Shown piece after piece: positions 6,331-25,325 of a DNA stretch of 64,000 nt. The number at the start of each line of letters is the position of its first letter. Within the stretch, counting starts at the first letter, position 1. Origin of the DNA: a virus (lineage: Duplodnaviria; Heunggongvirae; Uroviricota; Caudoviricetes); the IMG/VR virus record IMGVR_UViG_3300005077_000002, positions 1-64,000 of that record. The stretch is one strand, 5' to 3'. Below the pieces are notes generated by a model. That model saw only the letters and a list, made by a program, of their open reading frames with translations. It was not told where the DNA came from and did not search any database. The position numbers and the translations under genes are program-made.

Positions 6331-6347
6331 AGTGCATAAATATGCAT
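6331..6347 (+). promoter_or_regulatory. Palindromic motif AGTGCATAAATATGCAT, copy 2, 26 bp after copy 1
   Basis: TGCATAAATATGCA is near-palindromic; it lies upstream of the + gene at 6605. Confidence 0.5.
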
Positions 6348-6604
6348 TTCGGTAGGGCAGGGTGGGTTGTAGCTGGGCAGGCGAGCCCTTAATAGGGGTT
6401 GAAATGTGGTGTCGGGAGAGAGGGGCCAGGTATGTATTATATGGTACCTACTCGAATTTACGTTTCGAGCCCACCCGGTACTGTATAACACACTTAACCT
6501 GAGCCCTGTTGCTATGAGGGCCTCATCCAAAGTCGGGTGAGTGGGCGTGCATCGTGCGTCAGGTATTGGGTCATATAGCAGACTATCATAAACAGGAGGT
6601 TCGT

Positions 6605-8242: not shown

Positions 8243-8257
8243 ATAAAGAGGGACGCC

Positions 8258-10891
8258 ATGAGCGCCCCTTCTAACAAGCGAGATACAATGAGTTACCGCT
8301 CAATGTTATCTCATACCCTAAACGCAACAAACACCATGGAGGTAAATATGTTGCACAAAAGTAATGTAGCTATGAATGCTACAAAAGTCAACTCGGTTGA
8401 CGAGTTGTTCGGAAAGGTGTTCGGTAACCTTATGTTGCCGGATGTACAGGCGGAAACGGCAGAGCTTCTGTCCATTGAGCCTAAATACGCCACTATACGT
8501 CACATGATACTCACCATTAAAGTGACTGTAGTGAAGTCGGATGATCCGGCAATGGCAGGCGTTGTTAAGACCGAGATTGTTGGGTTAACACCCAACGAAG
8601 ATATGAAAGATCCAGTTGAAAAACGGATCTGTTTGTATCCTAAAGTCGGTGATGCTGAAGTCTTGTCCGTTACTGTCTTATTCGTCGGATCGGACGACGC
8701 ATCAAAACTGGCATTCGATGATAAATCGTTGGATGTCAAGTTCGGTGAATGGCTAAAGTCAATGGGATACGACCTGATGGGCGGTACATCATTGAATAAG
8801 GGAACGTTCTATCTCGTGAACTGGAAAAGTCACGGGATAAAATTGGCCCATGAGTCCATTGGTTATCTGTCTTTGTTGCTAACTGGCGCTGGATCATTCC
8901 GTGATGGTCAGCCGATGATGTTCGGCGACGGCAAAGAACAAGTGCGTGTTCTTGTCGTGACCAGGGATGAGTTGCGTAAGACAGGTTTGGCGGGCGATGG
9001 TGCTGGATTGGCATTCAGAACATTCGGCCAGCACAGGACACTGTTGAATGGCAAATCCGTAGCCAAGGGCATCTACATTGGCTATAATGATGCCATTAAC
9101 TTCGGTCTGCAGGTTCCGAAAGACTGGATGGATTATCATTTCGTCATTTGTGAAGATGACGTTAAGATAAATCCGGTGAAAGCCGGAATCTATACCGGAC
9201 ATGTTGTCATAACCCATGATAACGTATGGACCATACGTGGTCAAGAGGTTAAAGTGGGCTTTGAAGTGTTTCAGAACATTAAAGAGTCACAAGGTGTTTA
9301 TAGCCTTCTGACTTCAAGAGTTCTGAACGCATCACTGCCATCCTACGAGGAAATCGTGGCCCGCGGTGAAGCTGAAAGGATGCTGGAAGCAATAGCAGAC
9401 GGCACCATTGACGAGTATGAACCGTTGGTAGTGCGCTCGACTCTGATGGAAGCAGTGCTTTCACCGACGTTCGGTCCGCGCAATCCCTGGGTTGCTAATA
9501 AGCTTGAGAACTCCGTGGTTAATTACGTGTTCTCAAAGCCTATGGCAGGCACTGAGTTCAGGATAGTTGTTGTTGTGGATGATACTACCGCAAAGCGTAT
9601 TAATGCCATACGACTGGCAGATGATACACAACGCACCAGCGGTAAATTGTTCTTCAAATATCCGGTAGTAGCTGGGGTTGCGGTCGTCACCGGCAGAAAC
9701 CACTTTGGTCCATTCGTTGTCGTATCAGAGAGTTTGGCAGCAATGCTGAACACAGACTCTGATGGTGATGGCGCAGTGGTTTGGGCTGGTAATACAGTCG
9801 ATTACATTATCAACAATGATCTGGTAAAAGATCTCGTTGATCTGAAGATCGACAAAGCAAACCTGCAACGTCGTGACGACGCCATGGAGCCGGTTAATTT
9901 GGCCAAACAAGCCCTACACATCATGAACTCATCACGGATGATCGGATTCCTTACAAATCTGTATTACCGTGGTGCTGTTTCCAATGCAGTTGGACTGACT
10001 CAGTTGGATTTGAGTCCTATTTACGAGTCTATTGAACTCGTGATCAAGGGCGCCAAATACAAGACTGAAGAAGTGCTGAAGGCTACCATGGCCAGATTGT
10101 GGACAGATATTCCAGTAAAAGCTCTAAACGACATGATAAAGATGCCGTGGGGCAGAAGTGCCGTTGAGAAAATGCTGGCAGCATTTAATGAAGACGGAAA
10201 CATCGATATTCTATCCAGCAGAATAGACGATCCGATTCATTACATGGATGCTGTGTGGAACGCCACACTAGACAGATGTTCCATGGAAATCGGTAAGCTG
10301 CGCAGTAATGTGCTGCCACTGTCCGAGTTTGCCAACAGGATATCAAATCCAAGCAATCCGGAAGATGTGTCTACTGCTTATAAGGAATTGCATGGTATTC
10401 TGCTGGCCTGGAAAGAACTGCGGCCTGGTGGTATCATGGAAGGCAGAGCAGACGTGATGGCAAAGATTGCAGCAGCAGCTGGTCAGCATTTCTCATTGGA
10501 TGTCCGTCGTAAGATTACGAAGGATTATCTCGAGAAAACAGCCAGCAAGACTGGTGCATTCGCTATTCATCTTAACTTCGGTTCTATGACTGAATTAAGT
10601 GGTGGGCCGTCAGTGATGAAAGCTGCAGATTCCAGGTATAAACTCGTACGCGTATTCTGCTCAGGTGATGGTGCATTCGAAGTAACACCTGAAGTGTGCG
10701 ACGATATTAAACTGGATTCAGGTATGTTCTATCGTGGTAACACGATATTCAACTATGGATCAGGTTACTCTGAAGCCGATGTTGATGGCTACGAAGTCGA
10801 AGAGGTAGTGCCATATCTGACGTGGAACAAAGAGGCAAGAAAGATCACGTCCACACGTTCTGCCTGGATACTTCTGTCCAAGAGTAACTAA
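8258..10891 (+). CDS. Large protein (877 aa), candidate single-subunit two-barrel DNA-dependent RNA polymerase (YonO / crAss-like type)
   Basis: LNTDSDGDGAVVW resembles the universal beta-prime catalytic loop NADFDGD(Q)MAV (DxDGD); the size matches YonO-like enzymes; RBS AAGAGGGA; otherwise no recognisable motifs. Confidence 0.45.
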   Translation: MSAPSNKRDTMSYRSMLSHTLNATNTMEVNMLHKSNVAMNATKVNSVDELFGKVFGNLMLPDVQAETAELLSIEPKYATIRHMILTIKVTVVKSDDPAMAGVVKTEIVGLTPNEDMKDPVEKRICLYPKVGDAEVLSVTVLFVGSDDASKLAFDDKSLDVKFGEWLKSMGYDLMGGTSLNKGTFYLVNWKSHGIKLAHESIGYLSLLLTGAGSFRDGQPMMFGDGKEQVRVLVVTRDELRKTGLAGDGAGLAFRTFGQHRTLLNGKSVAKGIYIGYNDAINFGLQVPKDWMDYHFVICEDDVKINPVKAGIYTGHVVITHDNVWTIRGQEVKVGFEVFQNIKESQGVYSLLTSRVLNASLPSYEEIVARGEAERMLEAIADGTIDEYEPLVVRSTLMEAVLSPTFGPRNPWVANKLENSVVNYVFSKPMAGTEFRIVVVVDDTTAKRINAIRLADDTQRTSGKLFFKYPVVAGVAVVTGRNHFGPFVVVSESLAAMLNTDSDGDGAVVWAGNTVDYIINNDLVKDLVDLKIDKANLQRRDDAMEPVNLAKQALHIMNSSRMIGFLTNLYYRGAVSNAVGLTQLDLSPIYESIELVIKGAKYKTEEVLKATMARLWTDIPVKALNDMIKMPWGRSAVEKMLAAFNEDGNIDILSSRIDDPIHYMDAVWNATLDRCSMEIGKLRSNVLPLSEFANRISNPSNPEDVSTAYKELHGILLAWKELRPGGIMEGRADVMAKIAAAAGQHFSLDVRRKITKDYLEKTASKTGAFAIHLNFGSMTELSGGPSVMKAADSRYKLVRVFCSGDGAFEVTPEVCDDIKLDSGMFYRGNTIFNYGSGYSEADVDGYEVEEVVPYLTWNKEARKITSTRSAWILLSKSN

Positions 10892-10897
10892 TAAGAT

Positions 10898-10930
10898 AGC
10901 CCTGGCTTAAGCTGGGGCTCTTATTTATTC
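10898..10930 (+). terminator. Rho-independent terminator
   Basis: AGCCCTGG / CTGGGGCT stem with a 6-nt loop, then CTTATTTATT. Confidence 0.55.
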
Positions 10931-11290
10931 ATGGGGATCCATATGAACATCATCACTTGGTGCGAATTGCGTACTGAAGTTAATACGCGTGATATTCAGA
11001 CTATCAGACAGTCTGAGTGGAAAGCGTATGTCAATGCCGCAACAAACGCCATCCATGATTTTAACAGGGCATACACAGAAGGGAAGAGTGATTTCATCTA
11101 TATCACCGATCTGGGTATGCCTGTTATGCAGTTGAAATGCATTATAAGTGATGCATTCCGTTTACTGGATCAGGCAGAGGTAGACTGGAGTATGGACTTC
11201 AGGGCGTCGGCTTTGCAGAAAGTAGAGCTGGCCATAACTACTGTGCATGAAGCCTGGAAGCACGGTAATCGTGGATTAATAATCCACTAG
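10931..11290 (+). CDS. Hypothetical protein
   Basis: 119-aa ORF. Confidence 0.5.
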   Translation: MGIHMNIITWCELRTEVNTRDIQTIRQSEWKAYVNAATNAIHDFNRAYTEGKSDFIYITDLGMPVMQLKCIISDAFRLLDQAEVDWSMDFRASALQKVELAITTVHEAWKHGNRGLIIH

Positions 11291-11304
11291 AAAGGTACAC
11301 AACC

Positions 11305-11901
11305 ATGAAAAAGAACTTTTATGCAGTTAAGGTCGGAAGAAAGTCCAATGTTGTGGTCAGTACATGGACTGAATGTGAATCTCTAGTGACTGGATTTAAT
11401 GGAGCACAGTTCAAGGGATTTGCAACCTACGATGAAGCCATAGCTTATCTAAATGATTCAGTTCCATGTGCTATGGTCGGTGAATATGATGTCACTATAT
11501 ATGTGGATGGCTCATGCGGCGGTGGAAAGGTCTCATGGGCCTTTGTCGTCTACAGGGATAATACTAGGATATATGAAGACAGTGGACTGGTGTCTACTGA
11601 CAGATATCCTGATGTATTATCCATGAACAACGTAGCCGGCGAACTTGCCGCTGCTATGCGTGCTGTAAAGTGGGCGAGTGACAATAATATAAAGATAAGG
11701 TTAGTGTTCGATTATACTGGAATCCGCGAGTGGGCTATAGGATCATGGAAAGCCAAGAATGAGTACACTAAGGCTTATGTAGATTGGATGAGTAGTAGTA
11801 GCATGGATGTAGTTTCTGAATGGCTACACGTAAATGGGCACACAGGGGTGGAAGGTAACGAGTATGCTGATAAGTTATGCAAGGCAGCATTGAAAATGTA
11901 A
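11305..11901 (+). CDS. rnhA: RNase HI with an N-terminal RNA/DNA hybrid-binding domain (caulimovirus viroplasmin-like)
   Basis: N-terminus FYAVKVGRKSNVVVSTWTECESLVTGFNGAQFKGFATYDEAIAY matches the hybrid-binding domain; catalytic motifs DGSC, AELAA (Glu), FDYTG (Asp) and HVNGHTGVEGNEYADKL (His/Asp). Confidence 0.8.
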   Translation: MKKNFYAVKVGRKSNVVVSTWTECESLVTGFNGAQFKGFATYDEAIAYLNDSVPCAMVGEYDVTIYVDGSCGGGKVSWAFVVYRDNTRIYEDSGLVSTDRYPDVLSMNNVAGELAAAMRAVKWASDNNIKIRLVFDYTGIREWAIGSWKAKNEYTKAYVDWMSSSSMDVVSEWLHVNGHTGVEGNEYADKLCKAALKM

Positions 11902-11904
11902 TAA

Positions 11905-12000
11905 TCCTCCCTTCGGTCGGCTGCCTCCTCCGTCGGCAGCGCTCCTCGTCCCTCGTCGCTGCCGGTCGCTCCGCTCGCCTTCGGCGCCGGCACTATGGCG
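11905..12000. other. GC-rich hairpin cluster immediately after rnhA
   Basis: GCTGCC-N9-GGCAGC and CCTTCGG-type stem-loops; unlikely to be coding (the Arg-rich ORF 11877-12344 looks spurious). Confidence 0.4.
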
Positions 12001-12059
12001 CGACATGTATAAAAATAAACAAAAACAAAAAGCCGGTAGCCCCGGCAAGGAGAAAAAAG

Positions 12060-12344
12060 ATGGAAAGACGCCATCGCATAAGAAAGAACGAACAGATTAC
12101 TATAACCTCATTACTTAACGACAGTCTATTAAGAACTGTCGTAACGACGGTCTATAATAAGCTGATAAATCGGGATGGTCACAGCGACCAGCCCGAGTTT
12201 AGTCAATTTTTAAGGGGAATATGCCCCGTGCCGGTAATATTTGCCGGTAACGGGGGGTACAAGGTAACGGGCGTGGTGCTCGTGCACCCGTCCCCAAGTA
12301 AAAAAGCACATATAACATGTGGGAATCAAGAGTTTTATTTTTGA
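12060..12344 (+). CDS. Possible small protein (95 aa)
   Basis: AAGGAG RBS 8 nt before the ATG at 12060. Confidence 0.35.
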   Translation: MERRHRIRKNEQITITSLLNDSLLRTVVTTVYNKLINRDGHSDQPEFSQFLRGICPVPVIFAGNGGYKVTGVVLVHPSPSKKAHITCGNQEFYF

Positions 12345-12379
12345 TTCTCATACACGCCCTGTGCCCGGGGCGTTAAACA

Positions 12380-12560
12380 ATGGGCTTTCAAGCTACAAGG
12401 TAAGCCGGTGCGAAAACCTAGGTCGGCACCTACGAAAGTAGGTCAAAGTAGAGGTATCGGGATATGAGCCCGGCAAGGTGCCCGGACGCGTATGGTTACA
12501 TACGAGTTGTGGATAGGCACGTAAATACGGGCTTCCTGTCTGGCTCATATCGATCATGGT
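12380..12560 (+). ncRNA. Structured non-coding candidate with a 10-bp long-range helix, a GAAA tetraloop hairpin and a CCGG hairpin
   Basis: GATATGAGCC (12460-12469) pairs with GGCTCATATC (12541-12550); hairpin CCTAC-GAAA-GTAGG; no convincing ORF. Confidence 0.3.
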
Positions 12561-12688
12561 AGCCATTTGTGTTAGTACCCCGCTATTCAAGGGGATTGTG
12601 GCTATTGTTGCCATGATCGGCGGCGCATTATGTGGTAGAGCGCCGGGCATAATGCTAAAGGTTCTACCCAGGACAGAAAGGGATCAGA

Positions 12689-12994
12689 TTGAACTATATC
12701 AATCTGACTCCTCATACTATCGTGCTCAACGATGGGCGCGAATTCCAGCCGTCTGGAATTATTGCACGTGTAAGCGTGCAGTTCGGGCCTATCGTGAACG
12801 ATGTTAGTGTGCAGTCCTATGGGAACGTGGTAGATCTACCAGAACCCAAGGACGACACGTGCTACATCGTTAGTGGCATAGTACTCGCTGCTTGCGGCGG
12901 TCGAGTAGACGTTGTAGCTCCGGCTACAGGTCACAAAGACTGCGTGCGCAACGAGAAAGGACACATTGTGTCCGTACCGTGTTTCACACGATAG
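12689..12994 (+). CDS. Hypothetical protein
   Basis: 101-aa ORF with a TTG start preceded by AAAGGGA. Confidence 0.4.
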   Translation: MNYINLTPHTIVLNDGREFQPSGIIARVSVQFGPIVNDVSVQSYGNVVDLPEPKDDTCYIVSGIVLAACGGRVDVVAPATGHKDCVRNEKGHIVSVPCFTR

Positions 12995-13220
12995 TGTGCA
13001 CAGAGTCCAAAGCCATGGATCACAGGGGCTGCAACGATCCATGGGCTGACGGCCCCATTAGCGGTGCAGGATTCAAAGTTTACCTTTAAAGGGTATATTT
13101 TGAAATCATAATCTGCTGCAACCCTGACGGCTATGAATTATCTAGCCGAGTATGCTCGTCAGGGCAACTTAATATTTGTGCGGCCGGCATACCCGCACAC
13201 CCTGAGATATGGATCTCTGG

Positions 13221-13239
13221 GCGAGTGCATAAATATACA
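13221..13239 (+). promoter_or_regulatory. Promoter/operator motif GCGAGTGCATAAATATACA embedded in the long palindrome CCCTGAG...GAGTGCA-N13-TGCACTC...CTCAGGG
   Basis: Identical 19-mer to the copy at 6303-6321; flanking inverted repeats GAGTGCA/TGCACTC and CCCTGAG/CTCAGGG (13200-13262). Confidence 0.55.
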
Positions 13240-13540
13240 TTGTGCACTCACTCAGGGATCTTTGTTGGTGTATCCCGTGGGGGACTGCGCGTGTGTCCAT
13301 GCCTGACTACCATGGATGTGCGGCGCATAGTGGATCTAGTCCATCCGCAAGTGTCAGGTCCGAGTCCTGCTATGCACCAATATTCCTGCTGGCCAGTTGG
13401 GCAGTAAAAGCCTGGCTGGCCTTTATATTTCCTAAAAGAGGGACAGAGGGGAAAGATTTACCTCCTTGGCTCCTTTGCCTCTCTTTTAGGGTGCTCATGC
13501 GTGAGCACTAATCAGTATTAACCAAAGATAGGAGTGACCG

Positions 13541-13930
13541 TTGAAAAAGAAAACCTTCAAGGTTACCGGAACTGACGAATCCGGTAATCCTGTGAATACG
13601 ATTGTACCGGCGAAAGACCGCGCCGGTGTCATACGTCCAATGGCGAAATGCGGAGATCTCGTTGATGATGTGCTGGTCAGCACCATTGAGCAGTTATTGT
13701 TGGATTACTGTGAAGACGATAAAGCCGTCAGAATCAGAATCAAAAAGGATAAATATGATTATTATCATGTGGCCGCTGACATGGCAAAACCAATGAAAAT
13801 GAACCCTATGACAGTGGCAAAATACATAGTAGGGTCATTGGAACGCGCCGGGTTCAGCGTGGCCATGGACAGACCAAGTCATCCATGGGCCTTCAGATTA
13901 AGACTCGGTGACTGGGAACAACAACAATAG
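13541..13930 (+). CDS. Hypothetical protein
   Basis: 129 aa; AGGAG RBS before a TTG start. Confidence 0.55.
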   Translation: MKKKTFKVTGTDESGNPVNTIVPAKDRAGVIRPMAKCGDLVDDVLVSTIEQLLLDYCEDDKAVRIRIKKDKYDYYHVAADMAKPMKMNPMTVAKYIVGSLERAGFSVAMDRPSHPWAFRLRLGDWEQQQ

Positions 13931-14145
13931 AAGGGACCAAATGGAAACATTTCCTGTTATCTATTTGCTTGCGTTGATAGCCATCGTCGGTGATGGTTAT
14001 CGTCGTTCAACCGCAAAAACAGAATAGGGCCGCGTGGCCCTTTCCAACCAGGTCTCCGGACTACCGTGGTTACACGGCAGTTGCGAATAGCCGCGTAACT
14101 CGGGGACTTCGTTGGGAACCCATAACACATAGAAAAGGAGGGCAT

Positions 14146-14298
14146 ATGCCTGAAGATACCGAGGATATCATCACCACAGATATCCGGAATGCCGTAACAT
14201 GGCAATACCCACAAATGTTCGTGAACGTAATGCCGAAGGGGGGTGATTTGGTACAAATCGGCCCGTGGACACGTGATCGGTTCGAGAAGGAGGACTAA
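14146..14298 (+). CDS. Small protein (50 aa)
   Basis: AAGGAGG RBS 4 nt before the ATG at 14146 (the track ORF is longer, starting at 13990). Confidence 0.5.
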   Translation: MPEDTEDIITTDIRNAVTWQYPQMFVNVMPKGGDLVQIGPWTRDRFEKED

Positions 14299-14299
14299 C

Positions 14300-14449
14300 A
14301 TGGACATTGGTTCTGGTCGCGGATGGCCCGAAAGCGCACTGTCAAACTTCGCGATACATCCGTTTGCATTGGATGGAATACTGGTGTTAACACAGTCGGA
14401 ATTTGTGTCCAGATTGCATAAGCTGAGAAATGAGGCTGACAATGTATGA
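14300..14449 (+). CDS. Small protein (49 aa)
   Basis: AAGGAGG RBS before the ATG at 14300; overlaps the previous stop (coupled translation). Confidence 0.5.
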   Translation: MDIGSGRGWPESALSNFAIHPFALDGILVLTQSEFVSRLHKLRNEADNV

Positions 14450-14632
14450 GGCCCTATTCATGGGTCTCTTACTGCTGGGATACTGGATCTCAGCTAAGTC
14501 AGACGACCTCCCAGAATAGTTAAATATTCTGGCCGCCGCTCCGCTATCCAGGCCATCAGGCGAAATGTGTGAGCCGCGGTTTGAATATTTAAAATCCCCA
14601 ATAAGCCTACTTAAAGCTTGCCGGCACTGGCG

Positions 14633-14654
14633 GGTGTGTATAAATATGCACTCG
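14633..14654 (+). promoter_or_regulatory. Promoter/operator motif GGTGTGTATAAATATGCACTCG
   Basis: Shares the TGYATAAATATGCA core and the TGCACTC arm with the other copies; about 60 bp upstream of the gene at 14715. Confidence 0.5.
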
Positions 14655-14714
14655 TCCTACCCTGCCACTGGGGAATAACTAATAAATATACATAACAGAG
14701 GAGAAGAAAATTAC

Positions 14715-14909
14715 ATGGGAATATCCCATAGAGAACAAGAAATCCTTGACCGCTATTCGGTTGAGGCGGAAGGACTCAGTCCATCCGTATTGAACAGAAT
14801 CATGCACCAGGGAGCGGCGTACCCAGTGTGCAAACATGGCAGCAAAAAGAAGTCCCGCCGCGAAAAGACACGCAAACCCCAGCGTGGGGGAAAACGTGGA
14901 TGCTATTAA
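14715..14909 (+). CDS. Small basic protein
   Basis: GAGGAG RBS; 64 aa with a Lys/Arg-rich C-terminus. Confidence 0.5.
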   Translation: MGISHREQEILDRYSVEAEGLSPSVLNRIMHQGAAYPVCKHGSKKKSRREKTRKPQRGGKRGCY

Positions 14910-15090
14910 AAATCAAAATAAAGCTCAAGGCAAAGTACGTGATAAAAGTACCCGGAATGACAGATTCATCCGCGTCATCCGGTACACCACAAACAATTGC
15001 CCGTTAGAGCTGGGCGATATGGACAACGCAGGATTAGCACGCGCCTGCGAGCATTGTCCTAAGTTAAATGCGTGTGAAAAACTCAATTGA
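14836..15090 (+). CDS. Possible small protein that overlaps the previous ORF in another frame
   Basis: 84-aa ORF containing CxxC/HC motifs; uncertain. Confidence 0.3.
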   Translation: MAAKRSPAAKRHANPSVGENVDAIKNQNKAQGKVRDKSTRNDRFIRVIRYTTNNCPLELGDMDNAGLARACEHCPKLNACEKLN

Positions 15091-15101
15091 AGGAGGTGCT
15101 C

Positions 15102-15332
15102 ATGCACAAAGTCGAAATAGGCAACTTTGTGATATGGCATTCTGGCAGGTTTGTATCCGTGGCTAATACGATAGATGGCCTGCACAGAAAGGCCGTAGCG
15201 GACATTTCCGATAGTCTTATATCAAACTACGGTATAAGACTAAGGAATGGTAAGGCCAGACTCACCGCATTCTCAGAAGTAGCAAAAAACAGGATACAGA
15301 GCTTAATCAACCACGCTCTGACAACCAAATGA
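15102..15332 (+). CDS. Small protein (76 aa)
   Basis: GAAGGAGG RBS before the ATG at 15102. Confidence 0.55.
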   Translation: MHKVEIGNFVIWHSGRFVSVANTIDGLHRKAVADISDSLISNYGIRLRNGKARLTAFSEVAKNRIQSLINHALTTK

Positions 15333-15538
15333 AGAAAGCCGCAATAATAGCAGCACGCCTATCCAGCAAGATTAAAGATGCCCCCTGCACGGTATTCATG
15401 TGCGGTGGCGGATCCAGCAAAACACCGGCAAAAGTGCTGCGCTCGTCAACACCACAGGCGAGCAGAGAAACCCTGGCCATCATGGCTGAAGAAGCCAGAC
15501 GAGGTCGGTGGAGGCCCCCGGAAGGAAGAAAGAGATAA
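15329..15538 (+). CDS. Small basic protein
   Basis: ATGA start/stop overlap with the previous gene. Confidence 0.35.
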   Translation: MKKAAIIAARLSSKIKDAPCTVFMCGGGSSKTPAKVLRSSTPQASRETLAIMAEEARRGRWRPPEGRKR

Positions 15539-15684
15539 GTCCAATGTGGCATAAACGCCACAAAGAACATCATCAATCTACAGAAGGGAGTAAAATTAAT
15601 GATTACATTGTCCACAGTAGGTATAATAATTGGCACGGCATTAATGTTGTGCCTCACCACATCACCACGAAGAAGGAGGATCAA

Positions 15685-16041
15685 ATGAAAACAAAATCCA
15701 CCACCACCGCACACAAAGTACGCAAGGCCCACAAGGCCAGCATACTGCTCAGCAACAACAGAGTGTTAAAGGACCTAGCCAGGGAGAACTGGCTGCGTAA
15801 GCAACAGGACTACTTGAACATGCACCTGACCGGTATGGCTCAGGGCGCTGATACCGTAGCAAAATGGTTCTCAAAGGACCAGCGCGGATTGAAGCAAGTC
15901 GTCAAGGCTCTGTGGCCAATCCTGAAGCACGATGCGCGCCTGCTGGGCAAAGTAACCCAGGAACAGTTATATAAAATCAACACCTTTGTTGCATACCGGC
16001 ATAGCATCGCCGATGCAGCGAAGGAATATATTAACAATTAA
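15685..16041 (+). CDS. Basic protein (118 aa)
   Basis: GAAGGAGG RBS 5 nt before the ATG at 15685 (track ORF from 15508). Confidence 0.55.
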   Translation: MKTKSTTTAHKVRKAHKASILLSNNRVLKDLARENWLRKQQDYLNMHLTGMAQGADTVAKWFSKDQRGLKQVVKALWPILKHDARLLGKVTQEQLYKINTFVAYRHSIADAAKEYINN

Positions 16042-16053
16042 ATCGGAGGAATC

Positions 16054-16479
16054 ATGTCAGAGAACATCACCACCACACCCACACCTGCACCGCAGAGGAA
16101 AAAGCGTCAGACCACACGTGACGCAGTCAGTCGTAAGAACGTAGAACCCCGTGACAATGTAAATAATATTCTAAAAGCGATGAACTCCATCGGATCAGAA
16201 TTCAAACAAATGGTAAAACCTTCGCCGCAAAGCGACGAAGCCCTAAAGCGTAAACTGGATAAGATCAGGGCCTCCGTGGCCCGTGGAGTTACTGTGCAGG
16301 ATAAACAGAGAGAGGAAATCAGTCTCCTGTCAAAGTTCGAACGTGGTAAAACCGTAGCATCAGTTGGCCGGTCCATTCATGGATTATTTACATCAGGCGC
16401 TGACCTGATGAAAGACTTCGCTGAAGGACTTAAGGGAAAACCATCCCGAGCGGAACAAAAACTGATGCAGAATAAATAG
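16054..16479 (+). CDS. Hypothetical protein
   Basis: GGAGG RBS; 141 aa. Confidence 0.6.
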   Translation: MSENITTTPTPAPQRKKRQTTRDAVSRKNVEPRDNVNNILKAMNSIGSEFKQMVKPSPQSDEALKRKLDKIRASVARGVTVQDKQREEISLLSKFERGKTVASVGRSIHGLFTSGADLMKDFAEGLKGKPSRAEQKLMQNK

Positions 16480-16504
16480 CGAGCCTATCCCTCGCTGATA
16501 TAGG

Positions 16505-16535
16505 GTCGGGGTTAACGCCCCGACTCTTTATGTCT
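16505..16535 (+). terminator. Rho-independent terminator
   Basis: GTCGGGG-TTAACG-CCCCGAC hairpin followed by TCTTTATGTCT. Confidence 0.6.
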
Positions 16536-16645
16536 AAACAGCTCTTTAAAGGGATATGAGAGCAAACAACTTATCCGCTAATGGTGGATGTGCGGATTAA
16601 GAATAACTAGTAACCACCAACAATAAAACAGGAGGAAGACACCCT

Positions 16646-17128
16646 ATGATGTCAATGATGAGACTGACCGTGATGGGTCGACTTGGCGGGGATGCTGAAG
16701 TAACGACACTCAGCTCCGGCAAGGAAAAAGCCACAATGAGTGTAGCGATTGACAAAAGCTACAAGAAAGGTGATGAAAAGATCGAGCGTACGGAATGGGT
16801 ACGCATTACGATCTGGGATCCGTCGGACTACTTAAAGGAAAACCTGGCAAAGGGAGCCATGGTTTATGTAGAAGCCGAGCAGCGTACTTCCAAGAAGGAA
16901 GAGGACGGCAAGAATCGGTATTTCTACAATTGGGAGTCCTATCCCAATAACGTCATGGTACTCAAAAACGGTAATGGCGTCGCCAAAGCAGCCGCTGCAA
17001 CAACCGATGAGTATGACGAAGACCTGGCCGAGGATAATCCGGACGAAGAACCGCCGCCGTCGTCATCCACGAAGAAACCCACGTCAAAACCGCCTGCAGG
17101 GGGTAAGGACAAGAAATTACCCTTTTAG
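16646..17128 (+). CDS. ssb: Single-stranded DNA-binding protein
   Basis: OB-fold pattern (RLTVMGRLGGDAEV...TEWVRITIW...LAKGAMVYVEA...YFYNWE), Gly/Pro-rich linker, and a C-terminal acidic/aromatic tail ending LPF. Confidence 0.8.
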   Translation: MMSMMRLTVMGRLGGDAEVTTLSSGKEKATMSVAIDKSYKKGDEKIERTEWVRITIWDPSDYLKENLAKGAMVYVEAEQRTSKKEEDGKNRYFYNWESYPNNVMVLKNGNGVAKAAAATTDEYDEDLAEDNPDEEPPPSSSTKKPTSKPPAGGKDKKLPF

Positions 17129-17494
17129 GCCCTAACTGCCCGCCCCGCGAGGGGCTTGATGCCCCGAGCGGGTGCAGTGGCAATTATTGAAAAGCTCAAA
17201 AGCTTGCCCATTAAGTAAGTGAAGTCGTGTTTTTAATACCGACTGTACAATGGGGCGCCGCTTGCAGAGCATGTCAATAATAAGCCACTCGTCGTGCCAG
17301 TACAAACTGACACGAGGCGTAACGATAGTGAAGCCACGTTGACGAACGACGAGGACTCGTCATAGTGCACGACGTAAAAGCGCGAACTCCGCGCACCGTA
17401 ATTAACCTCGTTACTACAACCTAAAAACCTTGGTACTTGCTCCCGCCGGAGGCGGGGCTACTGACTACACAGTTACTCATAACAAGGAAGGGCA
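17129..17494. other. 365-bp hairpin-dense intergenic region
   Basis: GCCCC-GCGA-GGGGC (GNRA loop), GACGAG-GA-CTCGTC, CCCGCC-GGAG-GCGGG, and long-range CGTCGTGC...GCACGACG. Confidence 0.4.
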
Positions 17495-18196
17495 ATGCAC
17501 GTAGTACTTAGATTCGGAAAGCCTTACCATAAGCTTTCCACGTCCGTCAAGGACTATATAGACAAGCACATTAAAGAAAGAGTACACCCGGGCCACTTGG
17601 TAAATGCACCAGAAATTCCGCCGCAGTCTACCGCGGCAGCTTGCCTAGGTCCGATTCCCGATGACGTTGCAACTTCACTGCAACAACAGATCAATAATCC
17701 AAATACACCATATGCGGGCGCTGCTCTCAGAGAAGCAACCCGCGGCATTCCAATTTCCTGGTACGAAGGATCGTACTGGGCACCCATGGATCCCGATGTC
17801 GACGTCCTATTATACCTGGGGAAGAACCGGCTGTACTACGCCGACCCGCGCCCTGAGTATAAACGGGACGGAGAATCAATCAGTAAGTTGGAATTGGTAA
17901 AAACCATTGCCACATCCAAACCAGTCTGGTCAGTAAAACTGGACGGACAGTTAGGAAATGGCAATAATGAAGCGTTTAAACATGCGCTTGTAATTCGGTA
18001 CGAATTGCTGCGAGGCGCTGATGTTGTAACGCTGTCCCGGAAAGTGAAGATCGACGAGCCTTATGCGGTTGTGAAGGTCCGAGACTCCTGGATTTGGCCT
18101 CTCATCACATTGCACACTGCTACTCTCTTCGAACGCAGTCGAGCCAATCCAGTTAAAGTCTCCACACCTGCAGTTAAACCCGTTAGCTCCGTCTAA
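17495..18196 (+). CDS. Hypothetical protein; last gene of the GC-rich module
   Basis: AAGGAAGGG RBS; 233 aa. Confidence 0.6.
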   Translation: MHVVLRFGKPYHKLSTSVKDYIDKHIKERVHPGHLVNAPEIPPQSTAAACLGPIPDDVATSLQQQINNPNTPYAGAALREATRGIPISWYEGSYWAPMDPDVDVLLYLGKNRLYYADPRPEYKRDGESISKLELVKTIATSKPVWSVKLDGQLGNGNNEAFKHALVIRYELLRGADVVTLSRKVKIDEPYAVVKVRDSWIWPLITLHTATLFERSRANPVKVSTPAVKPVSSV

Positions 18197-18347
18197 CCAT
18201 TGACAACTATAACGACTTCAATCCCACCCTAGTTGTAGCCGTTATATATAACAGTAATCTCTACAGTATAGGGTACCCCTGGTAGTGTCATGCCCCGCGT
18301 ACTTGGCGGGGTATGCACGCTACTGGTTTTATTGTTCAATTAAACAT

Positions 18348-18507
18348 GCCAGCACAGCGCATGGTAGCGCAAGTTCATGGCTTGATGGTGTTGATACTCA
18401 AAAAAAGTCTCAGTAAGGTCGGCAAGTATGACGATACTGAAAGACTGAATACTGGAAAGCGTAAGCTAAACCCTACACCTATACTGGTTCGAATCCAGTA
18501 GCTGGCG
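18348..18507 (+). other. tRNA-like element with canonical 5' acceptor + D-arm and 3' T-arm + acceptor, separated by about 110 nt; an interrupted or intron-bearing tRNA, or an att-like tRNA fragment
   Basis: 5' GCCAGCA-CA-GCGC-ATGGTA-GCGC; 3' ACTGG-TTCGAAT-CCAGT-AGCTGGC-G; the acceptor pairs at 6 of 7 positions; the insert contains GATACT-type internal repeats and an A7 run. Confidence 0.4.
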
Positions 18508-18509
18508 CT

Positions 18510-18761
18510 TTGTATCTTAATCAAAAAATCATTGCTTTGGCTATGGTTTGTACCTGGCTTATGTATATAAATATATACTTTAGGTTACAGGCGTATGGTA
18601 AGAGGTTTGTTATTGGAAGAGGCGGCGACTTGTCCCGGCCCGGGAATAAAACAGAATGTGTCATACATGATTTTCCTAATGGTATGACTGTTCATGAACT
18701 CAAGTATATAATTAAAGACTGGCCGACTGTAAATCAATTTGGTGCGGTTAAAGTTATATAA
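18510..18761 (+). CDS. Hypothetical small protein (uncertain)
   Basis: 83-aa ORF; it contains a TGTATATAAATATATAC motif and copy 1 of the 18-bp GC-rich repeat. Confidence 0.3.
   Translation: MYLNQKIIALAMVCTWLMYINIYFRLQAYGKRFVIGRGGDLSRPGNKTECVIHDFPNGMTVHELKYIIKDWPTVNQFGAVKVI
18615..18632 (+). repeat. GGAAGAGGCGGCGACTTG element, copy 1
   Basis: 18/18 identity with the copies at 19136 and 19476; a GC-rich island in AT-rich DNA. Confidence 0.8.
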
Positions 18762-20295: not shown

Positions 20296-21117
20296 ATGCG
20301 TTTATTTGCAACATTGTTAGCATTATTGATGTTAGTAACATCATGTAAGTTTGCGTCTATCGAAGGCGATGAAGTCGGCGTGATACAAAGAAAACCAACC
20401 ATCTTTAGTATGTTTTACAAAGGTGGTGTGGATAAAAATGCCGCACAACCAGGAACTGTTACCGTCGCCTGGACTACGCAAGTACTACGATTCAAGACTT
20501 CCCCACAGGTATATAAGGAAGTTTTTGATAACATCATTACTGACGACAACAATCCGGTTGATTTTGATTGTTATATAAGTATCAAGATCCAATCGCAGTT
20601 TGCACCAAATCTTTATTCTAACTTTGGTGAGAACTGGTATATAAATAATATTTCTCCTTTAGCCCGAGCAATTATTCGGGACAAATGCTCGCAATATATT
20701 ATGTTTGACTTGGCGGGCAACCGAGAAGTTCTTGAGAATATAGAAAATTTTATGCAGGACTCTCTCAGGAATTACTGTATCGTATCCAACCTACCTGTGT
20801 CAATTATCGATGTAACCATGGGTCAGGTAACTCCACCGGCCGACGTGCTTAAAGAAACCGAAAGAACCGCCGCTGAAAAACAATCCAGCCTTACACAAAA
20901 GGCCCGTTCCAATTCGGAAATCGCTAGAGCCGAAGCAGAGAAGAATAAGGCAATAGCTGATAAAGCATATCGCACAGAAATGGGAATGACAATTACTGAG
21001 TATTTGGAACTTCGAGCAATCGAAGTTGAAAAGGAAAAGGTCGAGATAATTAAGGATAAAAAAGATGTTACTATCGTCTTCACTGGGAATTTGCCCGTGA
21101 GTTATCCGGCAAAATAA
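20296..21117 (+). CDS. Putative lipoprotein (possibly SPFH/band-7-like)
   Basis: Signal peptide with lipobox LVTSC; GGAGG RBS; C-terminal AEAEKNKAIADKAYRTE resembles SPFH proteins (weak). Confidence 0.55.
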   Translation: MRLFATLLALLMLVTSCKFASIEGDEVGVIQRKPTIFSMFYKGGVDKNAAQPGTVTVAWTTQVLRFKTSPQVYKEVFDNIITDDNNPVDFDCYISIKIQSQFAPNLYSNFGENWYINNISPLARAIIRDKCSQYIMFDLAGNREVLENIENFMQDSLRNYCIVSNLPVSIIDVTMGQVTPPADVLKETERTAAEKQSSLTQKARSNSEIARAEAEKNKAIADKAYRTEMGMTITEYLELRAIEVEKEKVEIIKDKKDVTIVFTGNLPVSYPAK

Positions 21118-21128: not shown

Positions 21129-21222
21129 TCCGGTATAGTATAATGGCAATACAGCCTGAAAGTAATGTGTTACCGTACACAGTATTTCAGGTAATAAGTG
21201 GGTTCGAATCCCACTACCGGAT
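21129..21222 (+). tRNA. tRNA-like gene (94 nt) with about 20-22 extra nt in the anticodon arm; if spliced, the anticodon would be GUA (Tyr); function uncertain
   Basis: Acceptor TCCGGTA/TACCGGA (7/7), D-arm GTAT-AATGGCA-ATAC, T-arm GTGGG-TTCGAAT-CCCAC; extended helix CCTGAAA/TTTCAGG enclosing an inner hairpin TGTGT-TACCGT-ACACA. Confidence 0.45.
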
Positions 21223-23102: not shown

Positions 23103-25325
23103 ATGCGGTATTTAATTTTAATGACCGGTTCGCCAGGTTCCGGAAAATCTACCTGGATTAAAGATCATGGGTTGAAACCATATACCATTTGTCCAGATGA
23201 TATCAGACTGATGTTTCAGACACCGGTTATAACTCCTGAGGGTAGTACGTCTATTTCACAGAAAAATGATAAAGACGTCTGGGAAATACTGTTCAGGATG
23301 CTGGAAAAGAGAATGGAACGTGGTGAGTTTACAGTTATTGACGCAACTCACTCTACAACGGACAGTATGAATGCATATAAGAAATATGCTGAAAAACACA
23401 GATATCGTGTATTCGCTGTTTCATTCCGTGATATACCGTTTCATGAATGTGTGCAGCGTAATTTAAATCGTGAACCATTGAAAATAGTACCTTTTGAAGT
23501 TATCCAGAGAAGTTACGCCAGATATGAAACCGAAGCCGGCCGCATTCCATCTTACATAAAAGTTCTTATGCCAGGCAGTGAGAAAACAATCAATTACAAT
23601 GTTCATGATATGAACAATTATAAAAGGATTCACCATATTGGTGATATTCATGGTTGTTTTGATGTATTGATGAAGTACTTCAGTGAAGTTGGTGTTGATC
23701 CTAATAATCTGCCAGCCGATGAATTGTTCATATTCACTGGCGATTATATTGATCGTGGCATTCAGAATTACGAAGTAGTACAGTATTTATTATCCATCTA
23801 TGCAAAATCTAATGTTATTATGCTGGAAGGCAATCATGAGAAATGGTTAAGACAATATGCTCATGATACCATTGAGCCAAATTGCAGTAAAGAATTCATT
23901 AAAACCATGAAGCAATTCTATACGCATCCAATAGATAAGAAGAAACTTCGTGAGTTTACCCGGCATTTGGCACAACTTACTATTTATGATTACGGATTAT
24001 ACAAGGTTATGGTAACTCATGGTGGTTTACCTTTTATTCCGAAAAATCCATTACTGGTTTCTACCCAGCAGATAATCAACGGTGTTGGCGGATATAATGA
24101 TATTACAATAGTAGATGAATCATTCAGTAAAACGTCAAATGAATCTAATCTATATTATTGTATTTCTATACATGGTCATCGCAATAAAATGGATGAACCC
24201 ATACAATCTTCCAAATACACTTATAATCTTGAAGGTAAAGTTGAATTTGGTGGAATGTTGCGGTGTGTAACACTGGATAAATCAGGCATCAAAACATTCG
24301 AAATCAAGAATGATGTATTTGCAGCCCCGGAATTAATATCAAAATCCGAAAATGATTTATCCGGCACTGCGTTGACTATTAATGAACTTTTTAATGCGCT
24401 TAATACAAGCAAATTCATAAACTCCGTTAATGTTTATGGTGATATTTATTCATTCAATTTCACCAAACAAGCATTCAAACTTAATGAGTGGAATGATCTA
24501 ACAAAGCTTGCCAGAGGTTTATTCATTGACAAGGCCAATATGAAGATAGTGGCCCGCGGATGGCCAAAATTCTTCAATGAAAACGAACCCGAAGTAAATA
24601 ATATTCAGGAATTATCACTCAGGATTGCTTATCCGTTGTCAGTATATCTTAAATACAATGGATTTCTTGGTCTTCTTGGATATGATGGTTCAGATTTCAT
24701 TATGGCATCTAAAAGTTCCACGAATGCATTCCATGCTATGCTGTTTACTACAATGATGCGTAATAGACATGGCGCCAAATTCAATGAATTGCGCGAATAT
24801 ATGTCAGCATCGAATACAACATTGCTATTTGAAGTAATTGATTGTGTCGAAGATCCGCATATTATCTATTATCCTGAGCCAAGAATTGTTTTGTTGGCTG
24901 AAGTAAAGAATGATATCGATTTCGTGCAAACTCCTTATAATGAATTACTCGAACTTGGCAGAAGGTTCGGATTTGAAGTTAAGCAATTAGTACAGGTAAT
25001 TAACAACAAAAACGAATTATTCTCTTTGATTGATTCAACAAAGGGAATAAACACTTCAAATCCTATTGAAGGATATGTGATTGAGGACTCTGGGGGCTAT
25101 ATGCTCAAGGTTAAAACAGAGTATTACAGATATTGGAAAATGATGCGTGCAATCCAGCACAACATTATTAATTCATCGAATCAATCCTTCAGAGGATTAT
25201 TCACTCCTGAAGCCATAAGATTTGTTCAATTCATGAAAAACAAACAACGATTTGAATTAATGGAAAAATCAATCATTCAATTAAGGATGGAGTTCAATGA
25301 AGAATATTTTAAAGCAACTGCGTAG
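23103..25325 (+). CDS. pnkp: Trifunctional Pnkp-like RNA repair enzyme: T4-Pnk-type 5'-kinase, calcineurin-type phosphoesterase, and C-terminal ligase-like nucleotidyltransferase
   Basis: N-terminus GSPGSGKSTW + PDDIRL matches T4 Pnk (GCPGSGKSTW, Asp-x-x-Arg); GDIHG / GDYIDRG / GNHE metallophosphoesterase motifs; C-terminal KYNGF (KxNG variant of the ligase motif I). Confidence 0.75.
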   Translation: MRYLILMTGSPGSGKSTWIKDHGLKPYTICPDDIRLMFQTPVITPEGSTSISQKNDKDVWEILFRMLEKRMERGEFTVIDATHSTTDSMNAYKKYAEKHRYRVFAVSFRDIPFHECVQRNLNREPLKIVPFEVIQRSYARYETEAGRIPSYIKVLMPGSEKTINYNVHDMNNYKRIHHIGDIHGCFDVLMKYFSEVGVDPNNLPADELFIFTGDYIDRGIQNYEVVQYLLSIYAKSNVIMLEGNHEKWLRQYAHDTIEPNCSKEFIKTMKQFYTHPIDKKKLREFTRHLAQLTIYDYGLYKVMVTHGGLPFIPKNPLLVSTQQIINGVGGYNDITIVDESFSKTSNESNLYYCISIHGHRNKMDEPIQSSKYTYNLEGKVEFGGMLRCVTLDKSGIKTFEIKNDVFAAPELISKSENDLSGTALTINELFNALNTSKFINSVNVYGDIYSFNFTKQAFKLNEWNDLTKLARGLFIDKANMKIVARGWPKFFNENEPEVNNIQELSLRIAYPLSVYLKYNGFLGLLGYDGSDFIMASKSSTNAFHAMLFTTMMRNRHGAKFNELREYMSASNTTLLFEVIDCVEDPHIIYYPEPRIVLLAEVKNDIDFVQTPYNELLELGRRFGFEVKQLVQVINNKNELFSLIDSTKGINTSNPIEGYVIEDSGGYMLKVKTEYYRYWKMMRAIQHNIINSSNQSFRGLFTPEAIRFVQFMKNKQRFELMEKSIIQLRMEFNEEYFKATA

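What the first reader, a model, noticed from the sequence alone, without database searches (positions are those of the whole stretch)
21129..21222. Second tRNA-like gene with a 20-22-nt insertion in the anticodon arm (possible intron-containing tRNA-Tyr(GUA))
The 7-bp acceptor stem is perfect, and the D-arm (GTAT-AATGGCA-ATAC) and T-arm (GTGGG-TTCGAAT-CCCAC) are canonical. The element is 94 nt long but has only a 6-nt variable region, so it is not a type II tRNA. The anticodon region instead forms a 7-bp helix CCTGAAA/TTTCAGG capped by a 5-bp inner hairpin, the geometry of an intron-bearing pre-tRNA. Removing 20 nt after position 37 would leave the loop AAGUAAU with anticodon GUA, but without the usual U33, so function is uncertain. 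Two such atypical tRNA-like genes next to one normal tRNA-Thr, in a genome that also encodes a healing/sealing enzyme, is a striking coincidence.
Basis: seen in the sequence. Interest (0 to 1): 0.6.

Follow-up and report, generated by a model that had tools for sequence, protein, structure and literature searches.

The report
Phage tRNA-like gene, anticodon loop replaced
A virus of bacteria carries a gene that folds like a normal transfer RNA, except that its decoding loop is replaced by a 29-base hairpin extension, so it probably cannot read codons; the idea that it is a spliced tyrosine tRNA is only weakly supported.

Summary
Window 21129-21222 (+) is a tRNA-derived gene: Rfam tRNA 44.2 bits against a threshold of 29, and 42.9 bits (E 5e-10) with my own tRNA model. 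The acceptor, D and T arms are perfect. A 5-bp anticodon stem encloses 29 nt instead of 7. Those 29 nt extend the stem into a closed arm (-15.7 kcal/mol, z -5.3).

The intron-tRNA-Tyr reading is only partly supported. ARAGORN in intron mode does call Tyr(GTA) with a 20-nt intron. However, an exhaustive test found no single excision that gives a 7-nt loop with U33. There is no bulge-helix-bulge motif. No splicing endonuclease was found in the part of the window scanned. Bacterial Tyr identity marks (long variable arm, A73) are absent.

The "normal tRNA-Thr next door" is 16.6 kb away on the other strand. The other "atypical tRNA" is only a T-arm hairpin. The kinase-phosphatase-RNA-ligase gene 1.9 kb downstream is real, but it did not co-occur with comparable elements elsewhere.

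The phage has no close relatives, so conservation could not be tested. Similar tRNA bodies whose anticodon loop cannot be restored by excision recur in other viral contigs.

Best reading (0.45): a non-decoding tRNA mimic. Rivals: a non-canonical spliced tRNA (0.2), a young pseudogene (0.25), a cis-acting processing signal (0.1).

The parts
21129..21222 (+). Whole tRNA-like gene (94 nt, no encoded CCA). It begins 11 nt after the stop codon of the SPFH gene and ends 57 nt before the next ATG.
   Evidence: Rfam RF00005 44.2 bits; own model R1 42.9 bits, E 5e-10; MFE cloverleaf -34.7 kcal/mol, z -5.2.
21129..21135 (+). Acceptor stem, 5' strand UCCGGUA. It pairs 7/7 with 21215-21221; the discriminator U is at 21222.
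   Evidence: Sequence. The same acceptor occurs mostly in bacterial tRNA-Asn(GUU).
21138..21152 (+). D arm GUAU-AAUGGCA-AUAC, with A14, G18, G19 and A21 in place; it is preceded by U8 A9.
   Evidence: Sequence; aligned to the model consensus.
21154..21158 (+). Anticodon stem, 5' strand GCCUG. It pairs with CAGGU at 21188-21192 (G27-U43 is a wobble pair).
   Evidence: pair probabilities 0.96-1.0.
21159..21187 (+). 29-nt segment in place of the 7-nt anticodon loop. AAA (21159-21161) pairs with UUU (21185-21187). The internal loop is GUAA (21162-21165) opposite GUA (21182-21184). The inner helix is UGUGU (21166-21170) / ACACA (21177-21181). The hexaloop is UACCGU (21171-21176).
   Evidence: Fold of the arm -15.7 kcal/mol, z -5.3. 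Shuffling only these 29 nt, 15 of 3000 shuffles reach the observed energy. The segment is unique in the window. No excision restores a U33 loop.
21160..21179 (+). The 20-nt 'intron' as placed by ARAGORN (AAGUAAUGUGUUACCGUACA, position 31/32). It would leave the loop CAGUAUU with anticodon GUA.
   Evidence: ARAGORN -i.
21193..21214 (+). Variable region AAUAA and T arm GUGGG-UUCGAAU-CCCAC.
   Evidence: Sequence.
20296..21117 (+). Upstream gene on the same strand: an SPFH/Band 7 protein. Its closest relatives (about 50% identity) are chromosomal genes in contigs with Bacteroidota marks.
   Evidence: Pfam PF01145 E 8e-21; homologues and their contexts.
23103..25325 (+). 740-aa fusion of polynucleotide kinase, metallophosphatase and Rnl1-type RNA ligase (RNA healing and sealing), 1.9 kb downstream. 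Context only; no link to the tRNA-like gene is shown.
   Evidence: Pfam AAA_33, Metallophos, RNA_lig_T4_1; full-length match to phrog_8238, E 7e-207; 113 phage records with a full-length match, 213 with any match, including Staphylococcus and Bacillus phages.

Best explanation
The element is a phage-encoded, tRNA-derived gene whose product keeps the complete L-shaped tRNA body but has no anticodon loop. In its place the anticodon stem runs on as a closed, irregular helix of about 16 pairs capped by a hexaloop. As transcribed it cannot decode, and no simple excision turns it into a canonical decoder.

I infer the following, none of it shown. It is transcribed with the SPFH operon. It is cut out by the host enzymes that recognise the tRNA body (RNase P at the 5' end, a 3' endonuclease or exonuclease plus the CCA-adding enzyme at the 3' end). 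It then persists as a stable, non-decoding tRNA mimic.

The most plausible use for such an RNA in a phage that also carries a tRNA repair enzyme is to occupy or divert host proteins that recognise tRNA by shape, such as tRNA-directed defence nucleases, without being consumed in translation. The existence of the gene and its fold are shown. Expression, processing and the role as a mimic are inferred.
For: - tRNA body intact: every one of the 29 predicted pairs is a Watson-Crick or G-U pair, and the conserved D-loop and T-loop residues are present. The element scores 44.2 and 42.9 bits with two tRNA covariance models despite losing the loop.
- The replacement segment is structured beyond chance and extends the stem coaxially.
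- No single excision gives a U33 / purine-37 loop.
- No aminoacylation identity set fits. The acceptor is Asn-like but the discriminator is U73. There is no long variable arm for bacterial Tyr, and pair 3:70 is C-G, so it is not Ala.
- Same strand and tight spacing between two genes, with no terminator-like site next to it.
- The same architecture recurs in unrelated viral contigs: L040 5594-5685(-) has a 5-bp stem, a 28-nt structured loop, and cannot be restored. In a capped IMG/VR survey, 41 of 102 insert-bearing tRNA bodies could not be restored by excision, and 11 of these keep the 5-bp anticodon stem around a 20-40-nt loop.
- T4 rnaC, a stable phage RNA of unknown role, also scores as a partial tRNA body with a replaced middle.
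Against: - There is only one sequence. The phage has no close relative in any collection searched, so neither conservation nor covariation of the insert could be tested.
- There are no expression data.
- A decoy role is an inference from context. The anticodon loop that many anticodon nucleases read is exactly what is missing.
- A freshly disabled tRNA gene would look the same.
- Intron-like inserts that are removed by an unknown route do exist in phage tRNA genes (Lak megaphages, PMC6784885; L029/L002 tRNA-Ala-like), so splicing by non-canonical rules is not excluded.
Confidence: 0.45

Rival explanations
1. It is an intron-containing tRNA precursor. An endonuclease removes 20-22 nt, and the phage kinase-phosphatase-ligase fusion (or a host ligase) joins the halves. 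The product is a decoder with anticodon GUA (Tyr), or AGU in the canonical 37/38 register, carrying an unusual A33 loop.
For: - ARAGORN in intron mode calls tRNA-Tyr(gta) with a 20-nt intron.
- The short repeat AGUA flanks the insert, so several cut positions give the same GUA-containing product.
- A healing/sealing enzyme is encoded 1.9 kb downstream.
- Phage tRNA genes with unexplained introns are on record, including a type I tRNA-Tyr(GTA) in Lak megaphages of Bacteroidota (PMC6784885).
- In IMG/VR contigs a tRNA-Ala-like gene with a 52-nt insert does restore the loop AUUGCAA on excision.
Against: - No excision yields U33.
- ARAGORN's site is 31/32, and its product loop CAGUAUU also lacks a purine at position 37.
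- There is no bulge-helix-bulge; the putative splice sites lie in or next to continuous helix.
- No EndA/Sen-type endonuclease was found in the ORFs scanned.
- U73 and the short variable region do not fit bacterial TyrRS.
- The ligase fusion is widespread in phages (113 records with a full-length match, 213 with any match). I did not examine the tRNA genes of those phages.
- The ligase fusion is absent from 120 loci holding insert-bearing tRNA bodies.
Confidence: 0.2
2. It is a recently inactivated tRNA gene (probably Asn- or Gln-like). Its anticodon loop was destroyed by a small palindromic insertion or rearrangement. It has no function and has not yet decayed.
For: - There is no canonical loop and no fitting identity set.
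- It is an orphan with no detectable homologue.
- It stands alone rather than in a tRNA cluster.
- Small palindromes can arise by replication template switching (general knowledge).
Against: - There are zero mismatches in 29 pairs, and the D-loop and T-loop signatures are intact.
- The insert is not merely a hairpin dropped into the loop. The loop-closing bases themselves form three extra pairs, so the whole arm is one stable helix.
- Removing the insert does not recover any canonical ancestral loop, which a simple recent insertion should allow.
- The same design recurs independently elsewhere.
Confidence: 0.25
3. It acts only in cis. The tRNA-shaped fold between the SPFH gene and the downstream small genes serves as an RNase P / RNase Z cleavage signal, or as a 3'-end stabiliser, dividing the polycistronic transcript. 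The released RNA itself has no role.
For: - It sits in a 162-nt gap between two same-strand genes, 11 nt after a stop codon.
- No terminator-like site flanks it.
- tRNA-shaped processing signals in operons and in organelle transcripts are established (general knowledge).
Against: - A processing signal needs only the acceptor/T-arm minihelix. Here the D arm, the anticodon stem and a structured extension are all kept intact.
- No other intergenic gap in the 64-kb window carries such a signal.
Confidence: 0.1

Closest known systems
'Enigmatic' introns in tRNA genes of Lak megaphages of Prevotella (Devoto et al. 2019, PMC6784885)
   Same: A large phage, probably of a Bacteroidota host. A tRNA gene seen only by intron-aware prediction, with extra sequence inside the anticodon loop. 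A type I (short variable region) gene labelled Tyr(GTA). Mechanism unknown.
   Different: The Lak tRNA-Tyr has U33, and a one-base shift of the published boundary gives the canonical loop CUGUAAA (my reading of their Table S6). Its insert is 93 nt and partly tRNA-like, and it is conserved among Lak genomes. Here the insert is 20-22 nt, no excision restores a canonical loop, and there are no relatives to test.
Archaeal/eukaryal protein-spliced tRNA introns (bulge-helix-bulge; the eukaryotic tRNA-Tyr intron)
   Same: Short insert (12-60 nt) in the anticodon loop. The label is Tyr(GUA). A heal-and-seal ligase set (kinase, phosphoesterase, ligase) is encoded nearby, with the same activities as fungal/plant Trl1.
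   Different: No 3-nt bulges flank a 4-bp helix. There is no canonical 37/38 solution with U33. No splicing endonuclease was found. The host is a bacterium. In the IMG/VR survey, the Tyr(GTA) genes that can be restored by excision carry a different D arm, and several lie on giant-virus contigs.
Phage T4 stable RNAs rnaC/rnaD (species 1 and 2 RNA)
   Same: Phage-encoded small stable RNAs of unknown function. rnaC contains a tRNA-like acceptor stem and T arm, with the middle replaced by 54 nt (17.6 bits with my model).
   Different: rnaC lacks a D arm and an anticodon stem, and it sits inside the T4 tRNA cluster. The window element keeps the full body (42.9 bits) and stands alone. There is no sequence similarity between the two.
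Group I introns in bacterial and phage tRNA anticodon loops
   Same: Same insertion site class (the anticodon loop) in bacterial-type tRNA genes.
   Different: Group I introns are about 200 nt or longer with a ribozyme core. Here there are 20-22 nt and no Rfam intron match.
Bacterial Y-RNA-like YrlA (the tRNA-like partner of Ro/Rsr in RNA repair)
   Same: A non-decoding RNA that mimics the tRNA body and has a long helix where the anticodon stem would be. It is linked to RNA repair modules, some in phages (PMC7824862).
   Different: In YrlA the 5' and 3' ends lie at the far end of the long helix and the 'acceptor' is closed, which is a permuted topology (from my own knowledge of the published structure). 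Here the ends are in the acceptor stem. There is no Rfam match to Y-RNA families, and no Ro/TROVE protein was seen in the ORFs scanned.

Membership tests
tRNA (Rfam RF00005) | Cloverleaf with 7-bp acceptor stem, D arm and T arm, scoring at or above the family threshold | tested here: met
   44.2 bits against a gathering score of 29; 42.9 bits, E 5e-10, with independent model R1.
tRNA (functional decoder) | 7-nt anticodon loop with U33 and purine 37 | tested here: not met
   The loop is 29 nt. An exhaustive single-excision test gives no U33 solution.
tRNA (functional decoder) | A coherent aminoacylation identity set | tested here: not met
   Asn-type acceptor but U73, where the tRNA-Asn genes seen have G73. 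Short variable region and U73 against bacterial Tyr. C3-G70, so not Ala. Nearest bodies are phage Gln/Asn.
Protein-spliced (bulge-helix-bulge) tRNA intron | Two 3-nt bulges separated by a 4-bp helix at the exon-intron junctions | tested here: not met
   The MFE structure and pair probabilities show an 8-bp helix, a 4x3 internal loop, a 5-bp helix and a hexaloop, with no offset bulges.
Protein-spliced (bulge-helix-bulge) tRNA intron | Excision restores a canonical anticodon stem-loop | tested here: not met
   ARAGORN's own solution leaves CAGUAUU (A33, U37).
Protein-spliced (bulge-helix-bulge) tRNA intron | A splicing endonuclease (EndA/Sen family) available in the phage or host | tested here: inconclusive
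   None was found among about 40 window ORFs scanned with Pfam/PHROGs. However, only 64 kb of a 189-kb genome is in hand, and the host is unknown.
Protein-spliced (bulge-helix-bulge) tRNA intron | An RNA ligase able to join the exon halves | tested here: met
   Kinase-metallophosphatase-Rnl1 fusion at 23103-25325. Its activity on this RNA was not tested.
Group I intron in tRNA | Ribozyme core of about 200 nt or more, with an Rfam Intron_gpI match | tested here: not met
   The insert is 20-22 nt, and the only significant Rfam match in the region is tRNA.
Lak-type phage tRNA intron | Insert in the anticodon loop of a phage tRNA gene, found only by intron-aware prediction | tested here: met
   Missed by default ARAGORN and Rfam; found with ARAGORN -i.
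Lak-type phage tRNA intron | Intron-less and intron-bearing alleles, or conservation of the insert among related phages | not testable with these tools
   No homologue of the element or of the phage was found in IMG/VR, the metagenome collection, GTDB genomes or INPHARED.
Bacterial tRNA-Tyr | Type II long variable arm and A73 | tested here: not met
   5-nt variable region AAUAA and U73. For comparison, the tRNA-Tyr(gta) in the distant phage locus L049 is 86 nt long, consistent with a long variable arm.
YrlA / Y-RNA-like tRNA mimic | Rfam match, or permuted topology with a Ro-binding helix | tested here: not met
   No Rfam hit other than tRNA. The 5' and 3' ends lie in the acceptor stem.

The most novel reading that the evidence does not exclude
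The transcript is a true precursor. A phage or host endonuclease cuts both strands of the extended arm, and the phage's own kinase-phosphatase-Rnl1 fusion heals and seals the halves. That would be a Trl1-like, protein-only tRNA splicing pathway operating in a bacterium, producing a decoder with a deliberately non-canonical (A33) anticodon loop that host anticodon nucleases cannot recognise.
Probability: 0.1. Interest if true: 0.85.

Novelty: new variant of a known kind. Interest (0 to 1): 0.4.

Why it matters
Insertions in phage tRNA genes have been on record since 2019 as 'enigmatic introns', with no mechanism. I found no paper proposing a mechanism in six full-text searches, although I did not search for work citing that report.

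This example is very short and cleanly structured, which makes two alternatives directly testable with one RNA-sequencing experiment and one in-vitro ligation: a spliced tRNA, or a tRNA mimic that never decodes.

The small survey made here suggests that tRNA bodies with a replaced anticodon loop are common in viral contigs and fall into two groups. In one group excision restores a normal loop; in the other it cannot. If the second group is functional, it would be an unrecognised class of viral tRNA mimics, possibly part of the conflict over tRNA-targeting defence systems. If it is not functional, these are simply decaying tRNA genes, and annotators should stop labelling them as intron-bearing tRNAs.

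Tried and rejected
1. Homologues by DNA pattern. Five IMG/VR scans, one metagenome scan and one GTDB scan found no homologue of the element. The source contig itself is not in the DNA collections.
2. Relatives through neighbouring proteins. SPFH, the ligase fusion and the AAA ATPase are each a singleton at 100% identity, with next hits of at most 52%, 45% and 41% identity. The SPFH relatives turned out to be chromosomal bacterial genes, not phages. The four distant ligase loci showed tRNA clusters in two cases but no insert-bearing gene.
3. INPHARED DNA searches: no match. The DNA polymerase is at most 25% identical to any isolated phage.
4. The insert as a repeated or mobile motif: it is unique in the window, and the 52 IMG/VR matches to its outer motif are chance hits without tRNA context.
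5. A second atypical tRNA at 18349-18507: rejected as a full tRNA-like gene. The candidate at 46339-46442, from ARAGORN at a lowered threshold, was also rejected.
6. Type II tRNA reading: the 17 nt after position 26 do not form an anticodon stem-loop.
7. Distal hexaloop as anticodon loop: it contains U-GUU-A (Asn-like), but no 5-bp stem with a 7-nt loop can be drawn around it. I treat this as coincidence.
8. K-turn reading of the internal loop: there are no tandem G-A steps.
9. attP / integration-site reading: the full 5' half is present, and no integrase was seen nearby.
10. General association with the ligase fusion: none was found in 120 survey loci.

Full report
**1. Observation**

The sequence at 21129-21222 (+) reads UCCGGUA UA GUAU-AAUGGCA-AUAC A GCCUG [29 nt] CAGGU AAUAA GUGGG-UUCGAAU-CCCAC UACCGGA U. 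All stems are perfectly paired. The conserved U8, A14, G18, G19, A21, the T-loop UUCGAAU and the G53-C61 pair are present.

- Default ARAGORN and default-filter Rfam see only one tRNA in the window, tRNA-Thr(UGU) at 4447-4520 on the minus strand.
- With permissive filters, Rfam's tRNA model scores the element at 44.2 bits (threshold 29). It treats 31 nt as a local insertion in place of the loop.
- A tRNA covariance model that I built from 105 phage and bacterial tRNAs and ran with filters off over the whole window gives 42.9 bits, E 5e-10.
- The minimum-energy fold is the cloverleaf with a prolonged anticodon arm: -34.7 kcal/mol, z -5.2.
- The arm alone (21154-21192) folds at -15.7 kcal/mol, z -5.3.
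- With the 5-bp stem held fixed and only the 29 nt shuffled, 15 of 3000 shuffles fold as well.

**2. Corrections to the side statements**

- The normal tRNA-Thr is 16.6 kb away on the opposite strand.
- No second full tRNA-like gene is detectable. At 18482-18499 only a T-arm hairpin matches (14.4 bits, E 0.08). Rfam finds nothing there, and the proposed 159-nt fold is unremarkable (z -1.6).
- The healing/sealing enzyme is real. ORF 23103-25325 is a kinase-metallophosphatase-Rnl1 ligase fusion. It matches phrog_8238 over its full length. Full-length matches occur in 113 phage records (213 records match in all), including Staphylococcus and Bacillus phages.

**3. Is it an intron-bearing tRNA-Tyr?**

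ARAGORN in intron mode returns tRNA-Tyr(gta) with a 20-nt intron. However, it places the intron at the non-canonical 31/32 position and leaves the loop CAGUAUU, with A33 and U37.

I enumerated every single contiguous excision that leaves a 5-bp stem and a 7-nt loop, allowing shifts of register. All 19 solutions that keep five pairs have A at position 33, and none has U33.

The arm has no bulge-helix-bulge. The three A-U pairs stack directly on the anticodon stem, and the unpaired parts are a 4x3 internal loop and the hexaloop.

No EndA/Sen-type endonuclease appeared among about 40 ORFs scanned. This covers only part of a 189-kb genome.

The identity marks do not fit bacterial Tyr, which needs a long variable arm and A73. 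The acceptor stem UCCGGUA/UACCGGA is the one used by bacterial tRNA-Asn(GUU) in 13 of 15 tRNAs found with that 3' end, but those genes have G73. In my biased sample, the body is nearest to phage tRNA-Gln and tRNA-Asn.

**4. Comparative evidence**

The phage is an orphan.
- No DNA match in INPHARED.
- The DNA polymerase is at most 25% identical to any isolated phage.
- The three neighbouring proteins searched are each alone in their 90% clusters, on one 188,693-bp JGI contig. Their next relatives are at most 52%, 45% and 41% identical.
- Pattern scans of IMG/VR, the metagenome collection and GTDB genomes found no homologue of the element.

Conservation and covariation of the insert therefore could not be tested. 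This is the main limit of this report.

The SPFH gene just upstream resembles chromosomal genes on contigs with Bacteroidota marks, such as a Por secretion tail domain. This is a weak hint at the host.

**5. Context from other viruses**

The literature records 'enigmatic introns' in tRNA genes of Lak megaphages of Prevotella, including a short-variable-arm tRNA-Tyr(GTA) (PMC6784885). In the published Lak sequence U33 is present, and a one-base shift of the boundary gives the canonical loop CUGUAAA. That is my reading of their table.

In loci fetched here:
- A tRNA-Ala-like gene (L029 4122-4249, L002 2747-2873) with a 52-54-nt insert also restores the canonical loop AUUGCAA on excision.
- L040 5594-5685(-) has the same design as the window element: the same D-arm type, a 5-bp anticodon stem, and a 28-nt structured loop that no excision can restore. 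It lies in a replication and recombination gene module (DnaB-like helicase, DnaD-like helicase loader, NinB/Orf, exonuclease), without RNA repair genes.

A capped IMG/VR scan for a common D arm and T loop separated by 38-62 nt gave 102 distinct tRNA bodies:
- 3 are type II.
- 58 can be restored by excision. They are mostly Tyr(GTA) with 12-36-nt inserts near position 37, and several lie on giant-virus contigs.
- 41 cannot be restored. Of these, 11 keep the 5-bp anticodon stem around a 20-40-nt loop, often a hairpin.

None of these 120 loci encodes a homologue of the ligase fusion.

T4 rnaC, a stable RNA of unknown function, scores as a partial tRNA body (acceptor plus T arm) with a replaced middle.

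**6. Interpretation**

- Shown: a complete tRNA body; a structured closed extension in place of the anticodon loop; no canonical decoder obtainable by excision; a location between two same-strand genes.
- Inferred: co-transcription, processing by enzymes that recognise the tRNA body, and persistence as a non-decoding tRNA mimic.

I rank the readings as follows: non-decoding mimic (0.45), young pseudogene (0.25), non-canonically spliced tRNA (0.2), purely cis-acting processing signal (0.1). The proposed decoy role rests on context only.

**7. Novelty and score**

The element belongs to a loosely known kind: insert-bearing tRNA genes of large phages, and phage tRNA-like stable RNAs. It differs from the documented cases because excision cannot restore a decoder.

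With a single sequence and no expression data, the finding is moderately interesting (0.4). It would rise sharply if splicing by the phage ligase, or a decoy function, were demonstrated.

Noticed in passing
window 18000-18600: There is a sharp compositional boundary: 45-49% G+C to the left (1-18000) and 32-40% to the right (18500-64000). A tRNA-fragment-like sequence sits exactly at the joint. It consists of the T arm ACTGG-TTCGAAT-CCAGT (18483-18499) plus AGCTGGC-G, and 110 nt upstream GCCAGCA-CA-GCGC-ATGGTA-GCGC, which would pair with it 6/7. This could be a degraded or split tRNA at a recombination junction, or an assembly joint.
   Followed up: partly
window 23103-25325 (+): A 740-aa single-chain fusion of polynucleotide kinase, metallophosphatase and Rnl1-type RNA ligase. 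It matches phrog_8238 over its full length. Its nearest relatives are only 43-45% identical.
   Followed up: partly
whole window: The phage is a deep orphan. Its family-A-like DNA polymerase (53441-56287) is at most 25% identical to any isolated phage. Every protein searched is a singleton on one 188,693-bp JGI contig.
   Followed up: partly
window 20296-21117 (+): The phage carries an SPFH/Band 7 (stomatin/HflC-like) gene about 50% identical to chromosomal genes of probable Bacteroidota. It looks like a host-derived accessory gene.
   Followed up: partly
L040 5594-5685 (-): A 46-kb IMG/VR phage contig carries a replication and recombination module (DnaB-like helicase, DnaD-like helicase loader, NinB/Orf, exonuclease). 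It also has a 92-nt tRNA-like gene of the same design as the window element: the same D-arm type, a 5-bp anticodon stem, and a 28-nt structured loop that excision cannot restore. ARAGORN labels it tRNA-???.
   Followed up: partly
L029 4122-4249 (+) and L002 2747-2873 (+): tRNA-Ala(UGC)-like genes in two IMG/VR contigs carry a 52-54-nt insert next to position 37/38. Excising it restores the canonical loop AUUGCAA. The insert is far too short to be a group I intron.
   Followed up: partly
L170, L171, L197, L218, L244, L251 (survey loci): A recurring family of tRNA bodies with a 40-nt non-canonical middle (TTTATCGCGTGAAGGGATATGCGATTGAATACCCTTGGTC and variants). AAGGG...CCCTT changes to AATGG...CCATT, which looks like compensatory change.
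   Followed up: no
L087 12869-13837 (+): In a distant phage with the same kinase-phosphatase-ligase fusion, a Thg1-like gene (tRNA 5'-end nucleotidyltransferase family) lies 670 nt downstream of the ligase, followed by an ADP-ribosylglycohydrolase.
   Followed up: no
L140 1909-2047 (-) (phage T4 rnaC): T4 species 1 RNA scores as a partial tRNA body: acceptor stem plus T arm CCGGG-UUCGAAU-CCCGG, with 54 nt in place of the D and anticodon arms (17.6 bits, E 7e-5). rnaD shows no such match.
   Followed up: partly
L021 29-201 and 355-447 (+): Two tandem tRNA-like genes share one acceptor stem and T arm (AGUCAGG...CCUGACU) but have different 173-nt and 93-nt bodies without a recognisable anticodon stem-loop.
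   Followed up: no
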